From Gemmatimonadota bacterium (GTDB taxonomy: Bacteria; Gemmatimonadota; Gemmatimonadetes; Gemmatimonadales; GWC2-71-9): 22,840 nt of DNA. The stretch is from NCBI GenBank assembly GCA_039586365.1, contig JBDHKN010000084.1, positions 1 through 22,840 on the forward strand. The letters run 5' to 3'. The notes beneath the pieces were generated by a model. The model had not been told where the DNA came from and searched no databases. It saw only the letters and a list, made by a program, of their open reading frames with translations. Positions 10,080 through 22,839 of this stretch are shown here, one piece after another. A program made the translations under genes and the position numbers. Each line of letters opens with the position of its first letter. Positions within the stretch are counted from its first letter, which is position 1.

Positions 10080-10547
10080 TCAAGCGGACCCGAGCACGCC
10101 TACCTGGAACAGCCGCACAACGAAGAAGCTGATCACGCCACCCTCGAGCAACCAAGCAGCGGGCTGCCGGTAGTAACCCAGGTACATCTCCTTGCCCCAA
10201 TAACCGGTGTCTTTGAACAGGGCCAGCGTGTAGCGCTTCTTGATGAACGGCCACAAGAACGGGATCCCCACCGTGCTGCCGCAATCGGCGATGAAATGCA
10301 GTAGTATCGCGACGAAGGCGAACACCGCGTAGTGCGGCGACCAGATGGCGACCAGCGCGCTCACCACGACAGCGAACCAGATGGTGTGCGTCACGGTGCA
10401 GTGGAACTTCTCACCTGCAATTCCGGACCGCTCTACCAGGGAGTCTGCGTTCGGTAGGAAGTGCATTACCAAACAGAACACTATCGTACGCGGACTCCAG
10501 TCGAACGTCGCAATCGACAGGGCCAGGGGTACGTGACCGGCTTGCAT
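10080..10547 (-). CDS. YdjM-like membrane metal-dependent hydrolase
   Basis: 155 aa with N-terminal GH, LPNAD (family LPDxD), HCTVTHT (family HRxxTHS), HFIAD and GIPFLWPF. GGAGG SD. Confidence 0.85.
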   Translation of the reverse strand: MQAGHVPLALSIATFDWSPRTIVFCLVMHFLPNADSLVERSGIAGEKFHCTVTHTIWFAVVVSALVAIWSPHYAVFAFVAILLHFIADCGSTVGIPFLWPFIKKRYTLALFKDTGYWGKEMYLGYYRQPAAWLLEGGVISFFVVRLFQVGVLGSA

Positions 10548-10699: not shown

Positions 10700-10728
10700 T
10701 TGCCATACCCAACCGAAACGCCTACAAT
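10700..10728 (+). promoter_or_regulatory. Sigma70-type promoter
   Basis: TTGCCA (10700-10705), 17-nt spacer, TACAAT (10723-10728): 5/6 and 5/6 consensus with optimal spacing. Predicted TSS near 10735. Confidence 0.7.
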
Positions 10729-10775
10729 GAGTTTGTCCACGCCCGATGTTCCACCCTAACGAAGGAGGTGATCCA

Positions 10776-10838
10776 TTGTCCAGTTATAAACCTGAGCGCA
10801 ACCTGGTTTGGGCAAGCGATCGCCGTATCGGTAGCTGA
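10776..10838 (+). CDS. Putative 20-aa small ORF MSSYKPERNLVWASDRRIGS
   Basis: TTG start directly after the extended SD AAGGAGGTGATCCA; TGA at 10836-10838. Below the ORF-track length cut-off. Confidence 0.45.
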   Translation: MSSYKPERNLVWASDRRIGS

Positions 10839-10913
10839 TCCAGGACCGAACCGCGATCTGCGCCTCTGATCGAGTGCCGCTAGGCGATCGTACCAGGTTG
10901 CGCAGGTCAAGAG

Positions 10914-10956
10914 CCGCGTCGTCGGGTGTTCGGTACCGGCGACGCGGTTTTCTTTG
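10914..10956 (+). terminator. Rho-independent terminator
   Basis: Stem CCGCGTCGTCGG (10914-10925) / CCGGCGACGCGG (10936-10947), 12 bp with one G-U pair, followed by TTTTCTTTG. Confidence 0.8.
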
Positions 10957-10990: not shown

Positions 10991-11067
10991 CCTGGATCTC
11001 GGGCACCTCAGTCCCCATTTTGCGGCCTGTATGATTGGACCGAGCCAGCGTTCATGGCAGTTCTGAC

Positions 11068-14217
<3,150 letters not shown>

Positions 14218-16061: not shown

Positions 16062-17108
16062 TCAGCGACCTGTCGGCACCCACCTTGAGCCGCGGCCCTG
16101 CCCTTGAACCTCCAATCTCCCGGCGTCTCGGTACTGCCTTAGCACGTACCGCACCATCTCCCGGCTCACGCCCGGGCACTCGGGTTCGAGCTCCGCAATC
16201 CCAAACGGCTGAGTGCGGCGTGCAATCGCTCGCTCGACCAATTCCGTCTTCCAGCCGCGGCCCGACCGGATCGTCCCGACGCGGGCTTCGAACTCCATGT
16301 ACGCACGATGCAGCACGACCCAGAAATACGTCATCCACGGTGCGACGTCGTGGGATCCTTCATGCCACCCCTCGGAACTCAACTCCAGCGTGTCGTAGTA
16401 GCGATCCTTGAGCTCCTCGAAGGTTCGCTCGAGACTGATGTACCGACCGACTGTATATCCGAAGTGATACAGCATGAGCAGCGTGAGCAGCCGAGCCATG
16501 CGACCGTTGCCATCGGCGAAGGGGTGGATGCAGAGGAAATCGAGAATCGCCAGGGGAACCACAACTAGCGGCTCCCGGCCGCGTTCGACCGCTGCGGCAT
16601 ACCGCTTTACCAGCTGGTCCATCGCACCAGGTGTCGCAACCGGTGAAACAGGTGTGAACCGCACCCGGACCTTCCCCTCACGGCTGCGCTCGATGATCTC
16701 GTTTTGAGAAGTCTTCCAGCGCCCACCACTACCCGACGTGTAACGGAACAACATAGCGTGTAGCTGGAGAATCACGTTCACGCTGAATGCCATGTCACGG
16801 TGGGACTCGTGAATGAGGTTCAGCGCGTCGCGGTAGCCCGCAATCTCCTGCTCCGACCGGTTCTCGGGCGCGGTCGGCCGCAACACCAACGCCTCGAGCC
16901 GCTCGCGTGGCGCTGTAATACCTTCCAGCCGGTTGGACGACTCTGTTGACTCGATGAGTGCGGCCTGAAGCAGCGCTTCAAGGACCTCCGGCGCTTGCTC
17001 CCTGAATAGCTCTTGTCTTCCCCGAAACTCTCCCAGCACATTGAGGGTCGACCCATCCTCGGCAGTGAGCCTAAGCTGTTGTAGATAAATGGCTTGAAGG
17101 GATTGCAC
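16062..17108 (-). CDS. Fic family protein (class II, N-terminal inhibitory helix) with a C-terminal winged-helix-like tail
   Basis: Canonical HPFADGNGRMAR motif; inhibitory (S/T)xxxEG motif SNRLEG; tail GVSREMVRYVL..GQGRGSRW. GTG start. Confidence 0.93.
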   Translation of the reverse strand: MQSLQAIYLQQLRLTAEDGSTLNVLGEFRGRQELFREQAPEVLEALLQAALIESTESSNRLEGITAPRERLEALVLRPTAPENRSEQEIAGYRDALNLIHESHRDMAFSVNVILQLHAMLFRYTSGSGGRWKTSQNEIIERSREGKVRVRFTPVSPVATPGAMDQLVKRYAAAVERGREPLVVVPLAILDFLCIHPFADGNGRMARLLTLLMLYHFGYTVGRYISLERTFEELKDRYYDTLELSSEGWHEGSHDVAPWMTYFWVVLHRAYMEFEARVGTIRSGRGWKTELVERAIARRTQPFGIAELEPECPGVSREMVRYVLRQYRDAGRLEVQGQGRGSRWVPTGR

Positions 17109-17459: not shown

Positions 17460-19436
17460 TCAATCACCGTCCCCGTCGGAAGAACTCACAGTCACCTCGG
17501 CGCTGCCTGACGCGCCGCCGGGCGCGGTTGCGGTAATCGTCGCGACACCGTTTGCCACCGCCGTTACCAGCCCCGTAGTGTCAACTAGCGCCACAGCTTC
17601 GTCGCTGGTGCTCCAGGTGAAGGTCACGCCGGCGACTGGGGTGTCGCCTGCGTCTCGCGCCTCCGCCGAGAGCTGGATTGTGCTAGCCAGTGTGGTGAAT
17701 GTATGGGTACCGGGAGTCACCACCACGCTGGCGCCGCGGAGGCCGCGGAAGATCATTCCACTATCGGCAACCACGAAGACACTTGCATTCGGGGTCCCCC
17801 AAAGGCCCCACAGCCAAATGCTGGTCGGGCTACTCATCAGAGACCAAGTGTTGCCGTCATAGTGGAGGACCTCCCCGCCGTCACCCACGCCATACACGTC
17901 GCTCGCTGAGCTGCCCCAGATGTCGTGAACGGTCCCGCCTGCAGGGTGGTTAGCCGCGGACCACGCGTTGCCGTCATACTGTAGAACCGTTGCGCCCGTC
18001 CCACCCGCATACAGGTCGGTTGCGGACGTACCCCAGACCGTCTCCAGGAAATAACTCGTCGGACTGGTCATGGTGCTCCAGGTGCTGCCATCATAGTGCA
18101 GAACCGTGCCGTTCTCACCGACTGCATACACATCACTGGAGGCCGTACCCCAGACATGCCACAGCGGCACGTTAACTGGGCTGCCCATTGTGCTCCATGT
18201 GCTGCCGTCGAATTGGAGAATCACTCCACCAGCACCGACCGCATAGACCGCCCTCGGGGTCGCACCCCAAACAGCCTCCAGGCCACCGGTGGCCGGAGTG
18301 TTCATAGCGGTCCAGGTAACCCCGTCATAGTGGAGGATCGAACCATCGTCGCCAACGGAATAAACGTCGCTTGAAGAAGTGCCCCAGACAGACCGCAGGA
18401 AACCGGCCGTCGGGACGTTCATTGCACTCCATGTGCTACCGTCATAGTGTAGCATCGTCCCGCCTTCGCCGACCGCAAAGACATCGCTCGATGAAGCACC
18501 CCACACAGACCACAGCCAGTTGCTCACCGGACTGCTCATCGTACTCCACAGGTTCACTGTCACCATTCCGGGCGCAGCTACGGTCAACAACCCATAGGCT
18601 ACAGCACCGTCGGCCGTAGCAGCTATCGTCACCTGCCCGCTCCCCACGGCCGTCGCCACACCGGTTACGCCATCTATCGTCGCAACGTTGGTGTTAAGAC
18701 TGGACCAGGTGAACGTCTTGCCGGGGATCAGGTTCCCGGTCGAGTCCCAGGCCGTGGCGGTGAAAGCCTGCGTCCCACCGGCCGTCGCGATGGTCGCGCC
18801 GGCAGGCGTCACGTCAATCGTCGCCGCCAGTTGATTGACGGTTATCTCCGCGTTACCCGCCGCGCCACCTGACGCTGTTGCGGTGATTGTGGCGACACCA
18901 TTTGCCACCGCCGTAACCAGGCCCGTGGTGTCGACCGTCGCCACAGCCTCGTCGCTGCTGCTCCAGGTGAACGTCACGCCGGCGACCGGCGTGTCAGCCG
19001 CGTCTCGCGCCTCCGCCGAGAGCCGTAGCGTGTCGCCCAATGCAGTGAGCGTAGCGACGCCGGGTGTGACCAGCACGCTCCCCCCGCGAATGCCGCGGAG
19101 GATCGTTCCGGAGTGTCCGACGGCAAACACATACGAGTCCGGGCTTGCCCAGACGTCGGATAAGTGCATGGTGGTCGGCCTGCTCATCAAACTCCAAGAT
19201 GTGCCAACATAGTGGAGAATGTCCCCACCCACCGCATACACGTCACTCGAGGATGTGCCCCAGACAGCACTTGCACCCGTCGGACTGGCCATCGCGCTCC
19301 ACGTGTTGCCGTCATAATGGAAGATCGCGTCGCCCACCGCGTACACATCGCTCGGAGAGGTGCCCCAAATAGAACCTAGACTGGTGGCCGGCCTGCTCAC
19401 CACACTCCACGCGCTGCCATTGTATTTGAGGACCAT
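17460..19436 (-). CDS. C-terminal fragment of a giant Ig-like (BIG2) / beta-propeller repeat protein, downstream of the frameshift
   Basis: Begins mid-blade (MVLKYNGSAW). WGxSxxDVYAVG..ILHYDG repeats and TWSSSDEAVATVDTTGLVTAV Ig domains continue the pattern of the upstream ORF. Confidence 0.85.
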   Translation of the reverse strand: MVLKYNGSAWSVVSRPATSLGSIWGTSPSDVYAVGDAIFHYDGNTWSAMASPTGASAVWGTSSSDVYAVGGDILHYVGTSWSLMSRPTTMHLSDVWASPDSYVFAVGHSGTILRGIRGGSVLVTPGVATLTALGDTLRLSAEARDAADTPVAGVTFTWSSSDEAVATVDTTGLVTAVANGVATITATASGGAAGNAEITVNQLAATIDVTPAGATIATAGGTQAFTATAWDSTGNLIPGKTFTWSSLNTNVATIDGVTGVATAVGSGQVTIAATADGAVAYGLLTVAAPGMVTVNLWSTMSSPVSNWLWSVWGASSSDVFAVGEGGTMLHYDGSTWSAMNVPTAGFLRSVWGTSSSDVYSVGDDGSILHYDGVTWTAMNTPATGGLEAVWGATPRAVYAVGAGGVILQFDGSTWSTMGSPVNVPLWHVWGTASSDVYAVGENGTVLHYDGSTWSTMTSPTSYFLETVWGTSATDLYAGGTGATVLQYDGNAWSAANHPAGGTVHDIWGSSASDVYGVGDGGEVLHYDGNTWSLMSSPTSIWLWGLWGTPNASVFVVADSGMIFRGLRGASVVVTPGTHTFTTLASTIQLSAEARDAGDTPVAGVTFTWSTSDEAVALVDTTGLVTAVANGVATITATAPGGASGSAEVTVSSSDGDGD

Positions 19437-22400
19437 CTATGCCTGTGAGAGTTGGGCTACTCATCACGCTCCATGCACTGCCATCGTAGTGGATAATTGT
19501 CCCAACACGTCCGACTGCAAACACGTCGCTAGGAGAACTGCCCCACACACCCTGCACATCATCGTTTGCGGGACTGCTAGTTGCGCTCCAAGCGGTACCG
19601 TCGTAATGGAGCATCGGCCATCCCAACGCATACACGTCGTTCGACGACGAACCCCAGACTGCGTTCAGGAACTCAGCTTCGGGGTTACTCATGAGGCTCC
19701 ATACGTTGCCGTCATAATGGAGGATTACTCCACCATTACCCACTGCATACACGTCGCTCACGGCGGTACCCCAGACACCGTGCAAATCCATACTCGTCGG
19801 ACTCTCCATCACGCTCCACAAGTTGACCGGCACCATGCCGGGTACGGCCACCGTCAGCAACCCGTAGCCCACAGCGCCGTCCGCCGCGGCGACGATCGTC
19901 ACCTGACCGCTGCCGACGGGTGACGCAACGCCGGTGGACGGGTCGATCGCAGCGATGTTCGAATTGAGGGTCGACCAGGTGAATGTCTTGCCGGGAATCA
20001 GGTGCCCGGTCGCATCCCACGCGATGCCAGCGAAAGCCTGTGTGCCGCCTGCTGTAGCGATAGTCGCGCCACCTGGCGTGACTTCAACTGCAGTCGCCAA
20101 TTGATTGACAGTTACCTCGGCACTGCCCGACGCACCGCCCGGCGCTGTTACGGTGATGGTCGCGACACCGCCTGATACGGCAGTAACCAGACCTTCCGTG
20201 TCCACTGTGGCTACGCTGAGATCACTGCTGCTCCACAGGGTGAGTGGCACACCGCTAACTGGGTTACCGCCAGCGTCCTGCGCTTGCGCTGCAAATCGCA
20301 CTGTGTCGCCCAACGCCGTGATCGTGTCGGCTGCAGGAGTGACCACCACGCTGGCACCGCGGTAACCGCGCACGATCGTGCCGCTGTCGCCTACCGCGAA
20401 GACATCCGAGTCCGGGCTTACCCACACGTGCCACACGCTCCCACTGCTTGGCCGGTTCATTGCGATGCTCCACGCGGCGCCGTCGTAATGGAGAATGCTG
20501 CCGTCCGCTGCGTAGACATCGCTAGAGGATGTACCCCACACATCACCCGCACCGTACTGCTCTGGATTGCTCATACTGCTCCAGGCACTGCCGTCGTAAT
20601 GGAGGATTATCGACGGATGACCAACAGCGTAGATATCACTCGCAGATGTACCCCAGATCCCATACAGCTCGCCGGTGGATTGCCTGTTCACCACACTCCA
20701 CGTGTTGCCGCCGTAATGAAGGATCGCTGCATCGGCTCCATCAGCACCCACCGCGTACACTTCATCGGCAGAAAGACCCCACACATCATGTATGCCAGCG
20801 GCTGTAGGGCTATTCATCGTACTCCAGGCAGTGCCGTCGTAATGGAGAATCCACCCAGGGTCACTGACCGCGTACACATCGATCGGAGAGGTGCCCCACA
20901 CACCCTCCCCGCCGGCCGGACTGCTCATGGTGCTCCAGTCACTGCCGTCGTAATGCAGAATCGGGCCCCCCGCCGCATACACGTTGCTCGACGAGGTCCC
21001 CCAGACGGCATGCAGGTTGCCACCATCAGAGTTACTCATTGTGGTCCACGCGCTACCGTCAAAATGCAGAATCGCTCCACCTCCCCCGACTGCAAAGACA
21101 TCGCTCGAAGAAGTACCCCAAACATCCCCCAGCCATACATTCACGGGGGTGTCCATCGTGCTCCACAGGTTCACCGGCTCCGCCACGGGCACCCCCACCG
21201 TCAGCAACCCGTACCCCACAGCACCGTCCGCCGCGGCGACAACCGTCACCTGCCCGCTGCCGACTGGTGACGCGATGCCGGTAGAGGGATCGATGTTCGC
21301 CACGTTCGTGTTGAGGGTCGACCAGGTGAACGTCTTGCCGGGGATCAGGTTCCCGGTTGAGTCCCAGGCCGTCGCAGTGAACAACTGCGTGGCGCCGGAC
21401 GTCGCGATAGTCGCCCCGGCTGGCGTGACTTCAACCGTCGCCGCTGCTTGAGCGATAGTTATCTCGGCACTGCCCGCTGCTCCGCCCGGCGCAGTCGCGC
21501 TGATCGTCGCGACACCGTTTGACACCGCCGTCACCAAGCCTGTGGTGTCCACTGTGGCTACGGCCTCGTCACTACTGTTCCATGAAGTGATCGACACCCC
21601 GCCCACCGGGTTGCCGGCTGCATCTTCGGCCTGTGCAGCAAGTCGTACGGTGTCGCCTAGTGCCGTGAGGGCACCGGCTGCTGATGTGACTACCACGCTG
21701 CCCCCGCGGATGCCGCGGAGGATCGTGCCACTGTCGCCCACGGCATACACATCCGAATTCGGGCTGGCCCACACGAACGCCAACGGGAGAGTGACCGGGC
21801 TGTCCACGGTGCTCCAGGTACTGCCGTCGTAATAGCGAATTGCTCCGCCGTCTCCCACAGCGTAGACATCGCCAGACGAACTGCCCCATACACCGTCTAC
21901 TGACAGATCCGGCCCGGAGCTGATCGTGCTCCACCCACTCCCGTCGTAGTGCAGGATCAATCCGCCAAAACCGACCGCGTAAACATCGTTCGGGGAACTT
22001 CCCCACACGCTCGACAAGAACAGGCTACTTGGGCTGTCCATCGTGCTCCACGCACTGCCGTCATAGTGGAGGATGGTTGCGTTCCAGGTCACGGCATACA
22101 CATCGTCGCTGGAGAAACCCCAGACATCCGCCACGCTCTCGCCCGTAGGGTTGTTCATCGTGCTCCATGAGTTCCCGTCGTAGCGCAGAATCGGTCCCCC
22201 ACCCACCGCAAATACGTCTCTGGGAGAGGTGCCCCAGACACCGTCCCCACCGCCCTCTGGAGCGTTCATGGCGCTCCACACGCTGCCGTCGTAGTGCAGA
22301 ATCGAACTCCCCACTGCATACACGTGACTCGACGAGGTGCCCCAGACAGCATGCAGGTCACCGGCGTCCGGGTTGCTCATCGTGGTCCACGTGCTGCCGT

Positions 22401-22776
22401 CATAGTGCAGAATTGCCCCGCCCCCACCAACTGCAAAGACATCGCTCGAAGAGGTACCCCACACGCCCGGCAACCCCGCTCTCGTCGGGCTGTCCATCAC
22501 GCTCCACAGGTTGACCGGCTCGAGTCCTGGCACCGCCACCGTGAGCACCGCGTACCCCCGAACACCCCCAGCCTCGGCGGCTAGCGTCACCTGACCGTTG
22601 CCCACCGCAGTCGCCTCGCCCGTTGACTCATCGATCGTCGCGACGTTGGGGTTGAGGCTCGCCCAGGTCACAGGCACCGACGTGAGCACCGTGCCCGCCA
22701 CATCGCGCGCCTCGGCCGTGAATGCCTGCATCGCGCCCACACCCGATATCGCCGCTCCACCCGGCGTCACCACCAC
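17487..22776 (-). repeat. Four tandem coding modules of about 1.3 kb (Ig / 7 blades / Ig)
   Basis: Module starts at about 22776, 21435, 20088 and 18818, giving periods of 1341, 1347 and 1270 nt. Each module has 7 W...WG.S..DV.AVG blades ending in RG(I/Y/L)RG. Confidence 0.9.
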
Positions 22777-22839
22777 CTCATCCACCGCACACGTACCACC
22801 CTGGCTGCTTGCCCCCTCTCTCAAGTCCACTGACAAATC
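19312..22839 (-). CDS. Upstream part of the giant Ig-like (BIG2) / beta-propeller repeat protein (5' end outside the window; frameshifted at about 19435)
   Basis: Frame is open to the window end. Repeated Ig + 7-blade modules; after SPTLTGI the translation loses the repeat pattern and stops at 19312. Confidence 0.88.
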   Translation of the reverse strand, partial: DLSVDLREGASSQGGTCAVDEVVVTPGGAAISGVGAMQAFTAEARDVAGTVLTSVPVTWASLNPNVATIDESTGEATAVGNGQVTLAAEAGGVRGYAVLTVAVPGLEPVNLWSVMDSPTRAGLPGVWGTSSSDVFAVGGGGAILHYDGSTWTTMSNPDAGDLHAVWGTSSSHVYAVGSSILHYDGSVWSAMNAPEGGGDGVWGTSPRDVFAVGGGPILRYDGNSWSTMNNPTGESVADVWGFSSDDVYAVTWNATILHYDGSAWSTMDSPSSLFLSSVWGSSPNDVYAVGFGGLILHYDGSGWSTISSGPDLSVDGVWGSSSGDVYAVGDGGAIRYYDGSTWSTVDSPVTLPLAFVWASPNSDVYAVGDSGTILRGIRGGSVVVTSAAGALTALGDTVRLAAQAEDAAGNPVGGVSITSWNSSDEAVATVDTTGLVTAVSNGVATISATAPGGAAGSAEITIAQAAATVEVTPAGATIATSGATQLFTATAWDSTGNLIPGKTFTWSTLNTNVANIDPSTGIASPVGSGQVTVVAAADGAVGYGLLTVGVPVAEPVNLWSTMDTPVNVWLGDVWGTSSSDVFAVGGGGAILHFDGSAWTTMSNSDGGNLHAVWGTSSSNVYAAGGPILHYDGSDWSTMSSPAGGEGVWGTSPIDVYAVSDPGWILHYDGTAWSTMNSPTAAGIHDVWGLSADEVYAVGADGADAAILHYGGNTWSVVNRQSTGELYGIWGTSASDIYAVGHPSIILHYDGSAWSSMSNPEQYGAGDVWGTSSSDVYAADGSILHYDGAAWSIAMNRPSSGSVWHVWVSPDSDVFAVGDSGTIVRGYRGASVVVTPAADTITALGDTVRFAAQAQDAGGNPVSGVPLTLWSSSDLSVATVDTEGLVTAVSGGVATITVTAPGGASGSAEVTVNQLATAVEVTPGGATIATAGGTQAFAGIAWDATGHLIPGKTFTWSTLNSNIAAIDPSTGVASPVGSGQVTIVAAADGAVGYGLLTVAVPGMVPVNLWSVMESPTSMDLHGVWGTAVSDVYAVGNGGVILHYDGNVWSLMSNPEAEFLNAVWGSSSNDVYALGWPMLHYDGTAWSATSSPANDDVQGVWGSSPSDVFAVGRVGTIIHYDGSAWSVMSSPTLTGIDGPQIQWQRVECGEQAGHQSRFYLGHLSERCVRGGRRDLPL

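What the first reader, a model, noticed from the sequence alone, without database searches (positions are those of the whole stretch)
10700..10956. Unannotated self-contained transcript of about 220 nt carrying a 14-nt perfect complement to the 16S rRNA 3' end
Seen: promoter TTGCCA-17-TACAAT; AAGGAGGTGATCCA at 10762-10775; a TTG-started 20-codon ORF; a long interrupted hairpin of about 115 nt (10791-10906); and an intrinsic terminator. Established: bacterial 16S rRNA ends in ...UGGAUCACCUCCUU, so this pairing runs well beyond an ordinary 4-8 nt Shine-Dalgarno. Inference: a dedicated sRNA or micro-peptide gene that loads 30S subunits very tightly in front of a stable hairpin. It could be a ribosome-trapping or ribosome-sensing RNA, or a dual-function RNA. 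I do not recognise it as a named RNA family.
Basis: partly seen in the sequence, partly recalled or inferred. Interest (0 to 1): 0.8.

Follow-up and report, generated by a model that had tools for sequence, protein, structure and literature searches.

The report
Self-masking ribosome-docking mini-mRNA (rre type)
This is a conserved, free-standing gene for a predicted 220-base folded RNA whose start matches 14 bases of the ribosome's 16S RNA tail and carries its own built-in masking strand plus a 20-codon frame whose peptide drifts, so it likely grips small ribosomal subunits and would be unzipped when translated; it is a Gemmatimonadota relative of the published but unexplained 'rre' mini-mRNAs.

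Summary
The promoter, the 14-nt 16S complement (10762-10775), the TTG 20-codon frame, the long stem and the terminator are all present. The organism is Gemmatimonadales. The element is in all 7 same-genus genomes, and its head pattern is in 129 of 251 phylum genomes (control 2), with a conserved promoter and changing neighbours. It is not a new kind: Bradyrhizobium rreB (Hahn, PMC5711450) has the same 14-mer, a non-AUG start, Ser2 and an internal GATCGCC, and Rfam CC2171 shares the head. The frame is kept but the peptide drifts. The invariant block at codons 12-17 can pair back over the SD and start codon (13 bp). Folding predicts masking while the RNA is made (65 of 81 members) and mostly release at full length. 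The long stem and terminator covary; two pseudoknots are only suggested. Similar layouts occur in Planctomycetota, Acidobacteriota and Gammaproteobacteria. Likely action: it grips 30S, is rarely translated, and is then unzipped and degraded. Its purpose is untested; guarding the 16S tail is my lead guess. This scan has found the class before in other Gemmatimonadota DNA.

The parts
10700..10728 (+). sigma-70-type promoter (-35 TTGCCA, 17 nt, -10 TACAAT); start of transcription predicted near 10735
   Evidence: matching site in homologues, score >=7 in 45 of 106 vs 3 of 106 control windows, -10 mostly 32-35 nt before the SD
10741..10744 (+). 5' GCCC, possible partner of GGGC 10810-10813 (pseudoknot; no covariation)
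   Evidence: GCCC (or GCCT) upstream in 81 of 81 class-I members vs 1 of 11 in the 11-codon family, which lacks GGGC; pairs invariant or one-sided
10762..10775 (+). extended Shine-Dalgarno, 14-nt complement of the 16S rRNA 3' tail
   Evidence: 11-18 Watson-Crick pairs across 108 members, mode 13
10776..10838 (+). 20-codon frame, TTG start, TGA stop; peptide MSSYKPERNLVWASDRRIGS, sequence not conserved in codons 4-11
10796..10903 (+). long stem P2 (10796-10807 with 10892-10903), starting about 20 nt after the start codon
   Evidence: 6 of 12 pairs change on both sides in 26 sequences
10810..10824 (+). invariant block GGGCAA-GC-GATCGCC: predicted anti-RBS, pairing 10767-10773 and 10776-10781 (13 bp); alternatively pairs with 10883-10891 (P3) and with the 5' GCCC
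10845..10851 (+). inner loop ACCGAAC, complementary to terminator loop 10928-10934 (possible kissing contact)
   Evidence: 24 of 24 members with this loop have TTCGG in the terminator loop vs 3 of 57 others; one position reads C-G 7, U-A 8, U-G 9
10913..10955 (+). terminal hairpin (10913-10925 with 10936-10948, 10-nt loop) and U-rich tail: predicted intrinsic terminator
   Evidence: 12 of 13 pairs change on both sides

Best explanation
This is a free-standing gene for a predicted 220-nt rre-type mini-mRNA that likely hides its own ribosome-binding site while being made, would then grip the 16S tail of a 30S subunit through 14 base pairs, and is likely unzipped and degraded on the rare occasions it is translated. 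Shown by sequence: own promoter and terminator, 16S-tail complement, non-AUG start, a kept reading frame with a drifting peptide, covarying P2 and terminator stems, and a 13-bp internal complement of the SD and start. Predicted by folding: the SD and start are masked until the 3' strand of P3/P2 is made, then mostly freed. Inferred from rreB: tight 30S binding, weak translation, translation-dependent decay. The RNA would thus sit on idle 30S subunits and build up when initiation is slow. My lead guess for its purpose is covering the free 16S 3' tail against exonucleases such as RNase R. Odds: about 85% for the rre-type identity, about 60% for the mask-dock-unzip cycle, about 30% for the tail-guard purpose.
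For: Same-genus 7 of 7; head pattern 129 of 251 vs control 2; 11 more members among 57 pattern-negative genomes. Promoter conserved, 45 of 106 vs 3 of 106. Downstream gene varies and faces the other way in 11 of 25 identified cases. Start TTG 96, GTG 13, CTG 1 of 110 short-frame heads. Start-to-GGGC distance is 31, 34 or 37 nt in all 81 class-I members; it follows the start codon when the SD spacer is 1 nt shorter (5 cases). In-frame stops 0 of 55, against 11 and 50 of 55 in the other frames; synonymous 100 to non-synonymous 249. SD variants keep G-U pairs with the tail (4 cases). Anti-RBS helix 1035 of 1053 cells paired; head-body duplex beats shuffles at z<-2 in 58 of 81 vs 5 of 124 long-ORF controls. 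SD masked in 65 of 81 partial transcripts, 12 of 81 full-length. rreB has the same 14-mer, GTG-TCT and GGGATCGCC in its frame and shows 30S binding, weak translation and a half-life of 10 vs 37 min without the start codon. An SD oligo protects 16S in 30S from RNase R in vitro (PMC10901742).
Against: No direct transcript, ribosome-binding or translation data for this organism. The anti-RBS helix has no two-sided change and does not beat the column shuffle, so conservation for another reason, such as protein binding or P3 alone, is not excluded. Class-I membership was defined by a pattern that partly enforces that block. The 5' pseudoknot shows no covariation and the kissing helix is nearly invariant. 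The masked state lies within 1 kcal/mol of the best fold in 26 of 81 members (median 3.6; window 5.6), so release is not clear-cut. Hahn et al. found rreB far less abundant than ribosomes and no growth effect at 20-fold excess. HPF is present in 222 of 251 genomes including this one, so the RNA is no stand-in for a lost hibernation factor. About half the phylum lacks the exact head and most sampled negatives gave no model hit. The anti-RBS signal is absent in the Planctomycetota, Acidobacteriota and Gammaproteobacteria look-alikes.
Confidence: 0.6

Rival explanations
1. Translation-gated regulatory RNA: the ribosome only sets the RNA's level or processing, and the folded body (P2, inner loop, terminator loop) or a released fragment acts on a protein or on other RNAs.
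For: Elaborate conserved body with a co-occurring loop-loop pair; rreB yields a 60-nt fragment found off ribosomes; the low ratio to ribosomes suits a regulator better than a bulk guard.
Against: The body differs between families (11-, 14-, 20- and 25-codon types) and phyla, while the head is constant; no conserved single-stranded seed apart from the anti-RBS block.
Confidence: 0.2
2. The peptide is the product (a small protein or nascent-chain sensor), kept scarce by the masked site.
For: Frame and length conserved, MSS start and (R/W)ASDR motif; rreB is weakly translated.
Against: Synonymous 100 to non-synonymous 249; the ASDR codons are fixed at third positions, as expected for RNA pairing; a 1-nt deletion changes that motif's frame in L314 and L315; an alphaproteobacterial motif is read in two frames; synthetic RreB and RreR are unstructured.
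Confidence: 0.1
3. Leader or attenuator of the downstream Ser/Thr kinase gene (11035-14217).
For: Same strand in the window and 14 of 25 identified downstream genes; short frame overlapping alternative stems.
Against: Downstream genes belong to many unrelated families and 11 of 25 face the other way; context is not conserved across alphaproteobacteria either.
Confidence: 0.05
4. Type I toxin mRNA with co-transcriptional SD masking, as in H. pylori aapA3.
For: Predicted transient masking by a sequence inside the ORF resembles PMC6733600 (abstract and section titles seen).
Against: Peptide is polar and drifting; no antisense promoter-like site over the element; one copy per genome in most carriers; overexpressed rreB did not slow growth.
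Confidence: 0.05

Closest known systems
rreB (Bradyrhizobiaceae) and rreR (Rhodobacterales) small mRNAs, Hahn et al., RNA Biol 14:1353, PMC5711450 (seen: abstract, parts 1-4 of 5 of the body covering introduction to discussion, and five rows of supplementary Table S2; figures not seen)
   Same: Own promoter and terminator; identical 14-mer AAGGAGGTGATCCA; same SD-start spacing; non-AUG start followed by a TCN codon; short frame; GATCGCC inside the frame; predicted double-stranded SD; context not conserved across lineages.
   Different: Different phylum; 14 nt rather than 16-17 nt of complement; TTG rather than GTG; 20 codons rather than 14 or 18; about 220 nt rather than 165 nt; different body with P2/P3, a possible 5' pseudoknot and a possible inner-loop/terminator-loop kiss; no peptide similarity.
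Rfam RF01867 CC2171 (Caulobacter sRNA; expression in Methylorubrum shown in bioRxiv 10.1101/2022.01.24.477521, passages seen)
   Same: Consensus begins with the same head and NTG-TC; two alphaproteobacterial loci found by my head pattern pass its gathering score (L064, L126).
   Different: Window scores 18 bits against 75; none of the six Gemmatimonadota loci tested pass; the body does not align.
Type I toxin mRNAs with metastable SD-masking hairpins (H. pylori aapA3, PMC6733600; abstract and outline seen)
   Same: Predicted transient masking of the SD by a sequence inside the ORF during transcription.
   Different: No hydrophobic toxin, no antisense partner found, and the SD here is far stronger than ordinary.

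Membership tests
rre small mRNAs (Hahn et al.) | At least 16 nt complementary to the 16S 3' end (the paper's search criterion) | tested here: not met
   14 Watson-Crick pairs in the window; 4 of 108 members reach 16 or more, 24 of 108 with G-U pairs
rre small mRNAs (Hahn et al.) | Complement runs through the spacer up to a short ORF with a weak start codon | tested here: met
   14-mer directly followed by TTG and 20 codons; same 14-mer as rreB
rre small mRNAs (Hahn et al.) | Stand-alone unit with own promoter and terminator | tested here: met
   (sequence evidence only)
rre small mRNAs (Hahn et al.) | SD region predicted to be double-stranded | tested here: met
rre small mRNAs (Hahn et al.) | Co-sediments with 30S; weakly translated; decay depends on the start codon | not testable with these tools
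   needs bench work; only the open frame is supported
rre small mRNAs (Hahn et al.) | Peptide conserved within the clade | tested here: not met
   codons 4-11 drift; synonymous 100 to non-synonymous 249
Rfam RF01867 CC2171 | Covariance-model score at or above 75 bits | tested here: not met
   18 bits, E 0.12
Type I toxin-antitoxin | Small hydrophobic toxic peptide | tested here: not met
   polar, variable peptide; toxicity itself not tested
Type I toxin-antitoxin | Antisense antitoxin RNA | tested here: inconclusive
   no minus-strand promoter-like site over the element in a simple scan; no stranded reads available
Leader-peptide attenuator | Fixed, co-oriented downstream target operon | tested here: not met

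The most novel reading that the evidence does not exclude
A cross-phylum class of RNA 'caps' for idle small ribosomal subunits (Alphaproteobacteria, Gemmatimonadota, and scattered Planctomycetota, Acidobacteriota, Gammaproteobacteria): a self-masked decoy mRNA with a built-in mimic of the 16S tail that unmasks only when complete, sheathes the anti-SD against RNase R or tail-cutting toxins, and destroys itself once the subunit proves able to initiate, an RNA counterpart of hibernation and quality-control factors.
Probability: 0.2. Interest if true: 0.85.

Novelty: new variant of a known kind. Interest (0 to 1): 0.5.

Why it matters
rre mRNAs were described once, in Alphaproteobacteria, with no known job. 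The same head and the same internal 16S-tail mimic in a distant phylum, with a drifting peptide, point to the act of ribosome binding and translation as the selected feature. That yields direct tests: 30S tail protection, two-state folding and translation-triggered decay. If the RNA guards or audits 30S subunits, it would be an overlooked layer of ribosome upkeep in thousands of species.

Tried and rejected
Rfam at gathering score: nothing in the window; weak hits to rdlD, mir-2058 and scr5239 cover only the terminal hairpin and were taken as chance. Leftover rRNA fragment or tmRNA: the match stops at 14 nt, and a separate tmRNA is in the genome. Phage element: of 120 viral-contig matches, 85 lead frames of 60 codons or more; five look like alphaproteobacterial rre, probably host flanks (inference). 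Stand-in for lost HPF (lead from e1-9285214): HPF is in 222 of 251 genomes and in this one. Leader of the kinase gene, toxin mRNA, functional peptide: see rivals. Expression: one soil metatranscriptome held a small share of the stretch. Five contigs of 155-222 nt lie within 10758-10933, one with only 3 differences over 150 nt, and the immediate flanks have no cover; over 19.9 kb only short kinase-like pieces and one 151-nt piece elsewhere were laid. These are contigs of relatives from one study, chosen by this stretch, without strand or ends, so they are a weak hint only. Formal covariation for the anti-RBS helix and the 5' pseudoknot was not found. A general SD-only duplex test gave weak signals outside Gemmatimonadota. 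Literature: searches found no paper on such an RNA in Gemmatimonadota and no follow-up on rreB; the library lacks most subscription journals. Hahn's figures and supplementary figures were not visible and may show the internal GATCGCC pairing. R-scape and RNAcode were not available.

Full report
Observation. The interval lies between a divergent YdjM-family hydrolase gene (10080-10547, minus strand) and a Ser/Thr kinase gene (11035-14217, plus strand). Close relatives of the hydrolase are named from Gemmatimonadales, and my head pattern returns Gemmatimonadota records of the same element. The 14-mer is unique in the assembly, against about 0.03 expected. The assembly has no 16S gene, but four of five relatives searched, including same-genus G004, give the tail and confirm 14 pairs. 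The 224-nt stretch folds better than all 200 shuffles. Rfam gives no hit at gathering score and a weak hit to CC2171 that aligns over the head only.

Distribution. A DNA search of 61 genomes (60 relatives plus the own) gave 37 matches at E<=0.1. Of the 30 loci returned, 21 including the own carry the head and a short frame; the other nine are chance. All 7 same-genus genomes have it. The pattern AGGAGGTGATCNNNTG matches 129 of 251 phylum genomes, against 2 for the reversed control; some matches are chance. One of the 251 (G185) is unpublished and counts only in this tally and that. A sequence model run on 57 of the 122 pattern-negative genomes found 8 more members at E<1e-4 and 3 weaker ones confirmed by eye. 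The rest gave nothing, so the element is common but not universal. A scan of GTDB contigs with the head plus TC estimated about 9600 stretches from 1 of 64 parts; the 120 seen are mostly Alphaproteobacteria and Gemmatimonadota with 11-27-codon frames. In evenly drawn samples, loci with head and short frame, most with a hairpin and terminator-like end, numbered 18 in 101 Alphaproteobacteria. By eye there were about 10 in 121 Planctomycetota (30 of 35 matches seen), 4 in 101 Acidobacteriota and 3 in 151 Gammaproteobacteria (the locus of unpublished G447 was left out). Group names rest on the record title of each centre genome, and the centre is among the positives in three of these four counts.

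It stands alone. A sigma-70-like site scoring 7 or more of 12 lies 30-49 nt before the SD in 45 of 106 members, against 3 of 106 control windows, mostly at 32-35 nt, with TTG opening the -35 in 40 of 45. Among 37 loci scanned, 25 had an identifiable downstream gene: 14 on the same strand and 11 facing the element, from many unrelated families. The terminal stem changes on both sides in 12 of 13 pairs, and the long stem P2 in 6 of 12, over 26 sequences.

The frame matters, the peptide little. I pooled 115 distinct Gemmatimonadota heads; 110 had frames of 30 codons or fewer. I picked the 60 extra regions with a bias to typical spacers, so this is not an unbiased rate. Two look-alikes (L156, L177) were dropped from later counts. 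Starts were TTG 96, GTG 13, CTG 1. In 81 members with the GGGCAA block (class I) the start-to-block distance is 31, 34 or 37 nt and never off-frame. Where the SD spacer is one base shorter, the frame follows the start codon (5 cases). In 55 distinct indel-free sequences (64 rows after dropping L309, L314, L315) there is no stop in codons 2-16; the other two frames have stops in 11 and 50 of 55, and column shuffles give none in 2.3% of trials. Among close pairs, synonymous to non-synonymous changes are 100 to 249, and second positions change most. Codons 13-16 are almost fixed even at third positions. One genus has a 1-nt deletion inside the block that changes the peptide end. This argues for selection on being translated and on RNA pairing, not on amino acids.

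A built-in mask. The fixed block 10810-10824 is complementary to the SD extension and to the start plus Ser codon: 13 bp around a 2x2 loop, -20.7 kcal/mol, against -24.6 for the SD with the 16S tail. Its GATCGCC half resembles the tail itself. Across 81 members 1035 of 1053 cells pair, and most changes keep G-U pairs. There is no two-sided change and the helix does not beat the column shuffle, though it beats slid registers 98% to 34-51%; the pattern defining class I partly enforces the block. A test that does not use that pattern, head against body versus shuffled body, gives z<-2 in 58 of 81 class-I, 8 of 12 14-codon, 5 of 11 11-codon, 29 of 94 and 8 of 18 mostly alphaproteobacterial members, 0 of 17 in the three other groups, and 5 of 124 long-ORF controls. 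Prefix folding masks the SD with probability 0.99 for transcripts ending 10826-10850 and releases it once the body stems form. Across class I masking is predicted in 65 of 81 prefixes and 12 of 81 full-length RNAs. The masked state costs 5.6 kcal/mol in the window and a median 3.6 overall. Two extra contacts could favour the open state. The 5' GCCC could pair with GGGC: both are present in 81 of 81 class I and are lost together in the 11-codon family, but with no covariation. The inner loop could pair with the terminator loop: they co-occur in 24 of 24 versus 3 of 57, both are lost in L015 and L305, and one position reads C-G, U-A or U-G and never C-A. Kin are not independent, so these are suggestive.

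Comparison with what is known. An earlier scan note pointed me to Hahn et al., which I then read. rreB is a 165-nt RNA with a 17-nt complement and a 14-codon GTG frame. It co-sediments with 30S, is weakly translated, and its half-life rises from 10 to 37 min when the start codon becomes a stop; 20-fold excess did not alter growth; analogues were reported only in Alphaproteobacteria. Its oligo table shows the same 14-mer, GTG-TCT and GGGATCGCC within the frame. So the window element works like rreB and may share ancestry, though convergence on the 16S tail cannot be excluded. It fails the paper's 16-nt criterion and the CC2171 score, so I file it as a new variant, not a member. Searches found no report in Gemmatimonadota.

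How it most likely works. The nascent RNA likely masks its SD and start, which would keep co-transcriptional ribosomes off. The finished RNA would trap the mask in P3/P2 and let the 16S tail pair. A TTG start, an over-long duplex and a stem close downstream would keep initiation rare. A ribosome that does elongate must unzip P2/P3, which by analogy with rreB leads to decay. The RNA would therefore dwell on idle 30S subunits. An SD-complementary oligo protects the 16S of 30S subunits from RNase R in vitro (PMC10901742, passages seen), which makes tail-guarding a testable purpose. Against it stand the low RNA-to-ribosome ratio reported for rreB and the presence of HPF in 222 of 251 genomes. Expression evidence here is only a weak hint from relatives' contigs in one soil metatranscriptome.

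Verdict. Real and conserved; a new variant of a published but unexplained kind; interest 0.5. The scan has recorded this class before: 14 and 19 notes in two word searches, many in Gemmatimonadota, two with a similar masked/open reading. Those are not independent support. My folding tests came before I saw those two notes; searches came after one of them.

Noticed in passing
L037, L041, L050, L057, L059, L139 (Rhodobacterales-like), L046, L051, L054 (Sphingomonadales), L431, L436, L439 (Acidobacteriota): A second SD-like GGAG(G) sits about 8-11 nt before the stop codon, a spacing that could anchor a terminating ribosome; Gemmatimonadota class I lacks it.
   Followed up: no
Gemmatimonadota sample: The strongest HPF (PF02482) matches fall in outer families f9-f12, where the element was not found, while most carriers have weaker matches in frames of about 100-125 aa; G110 and G120 are exceptions with both.
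   Followed up: no
L017, L019, L027, L165, L326: Recurring context in two families: a divergent kdtA (Kdo transferase) upstream, and in L019 and L165 a CPBP/Rce1-like protease downstream; possibly the ancestral locus.
   Followed up: partly
window 10816-10823: GCGATCGC within the fixed block is a perfect palindrome and could allow RNA dimers; its identity with the cyanobacterial HIP1 motif is recalled, not tested.
   Followed up: no
class I members: The stop codon starts 11 nt after the end of the 16S-tail mimic in 61 of 81 members and 14 nt in 12, so the mimic would leave the ribosome near the SD helix at termination.
   Followed up: partly
L458 (G667, 1.6-Mb AT-rich alphaproteobacterium): Even a small AT-rich genome keeps the head, a 24-codon frame and the terminator.
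   Followed up: no
G290 (L087), C5 and C10: Two matches with the same full head in one genome; most Gemmatimonadota carriers show one.
   Followed up: no
L348 (G100:C1:391990-393790): The head pattern here lies among repeated units of about 36 nt that look like a CRISPR array; a chance match, not this element.
   Followed up: no
window 17460-22836, minus strand: Two large ORFs (658 and 1174 aa) made of the same beta-propeller-like and Ig-like repeats, possibly one surface protein split near 19312-19436.
   Followed up: no
window 16062-17108, minus strand: Fic-domain-like gene (HPFADGNGR motif read from the translation; family label recalled).
   Followed up: no
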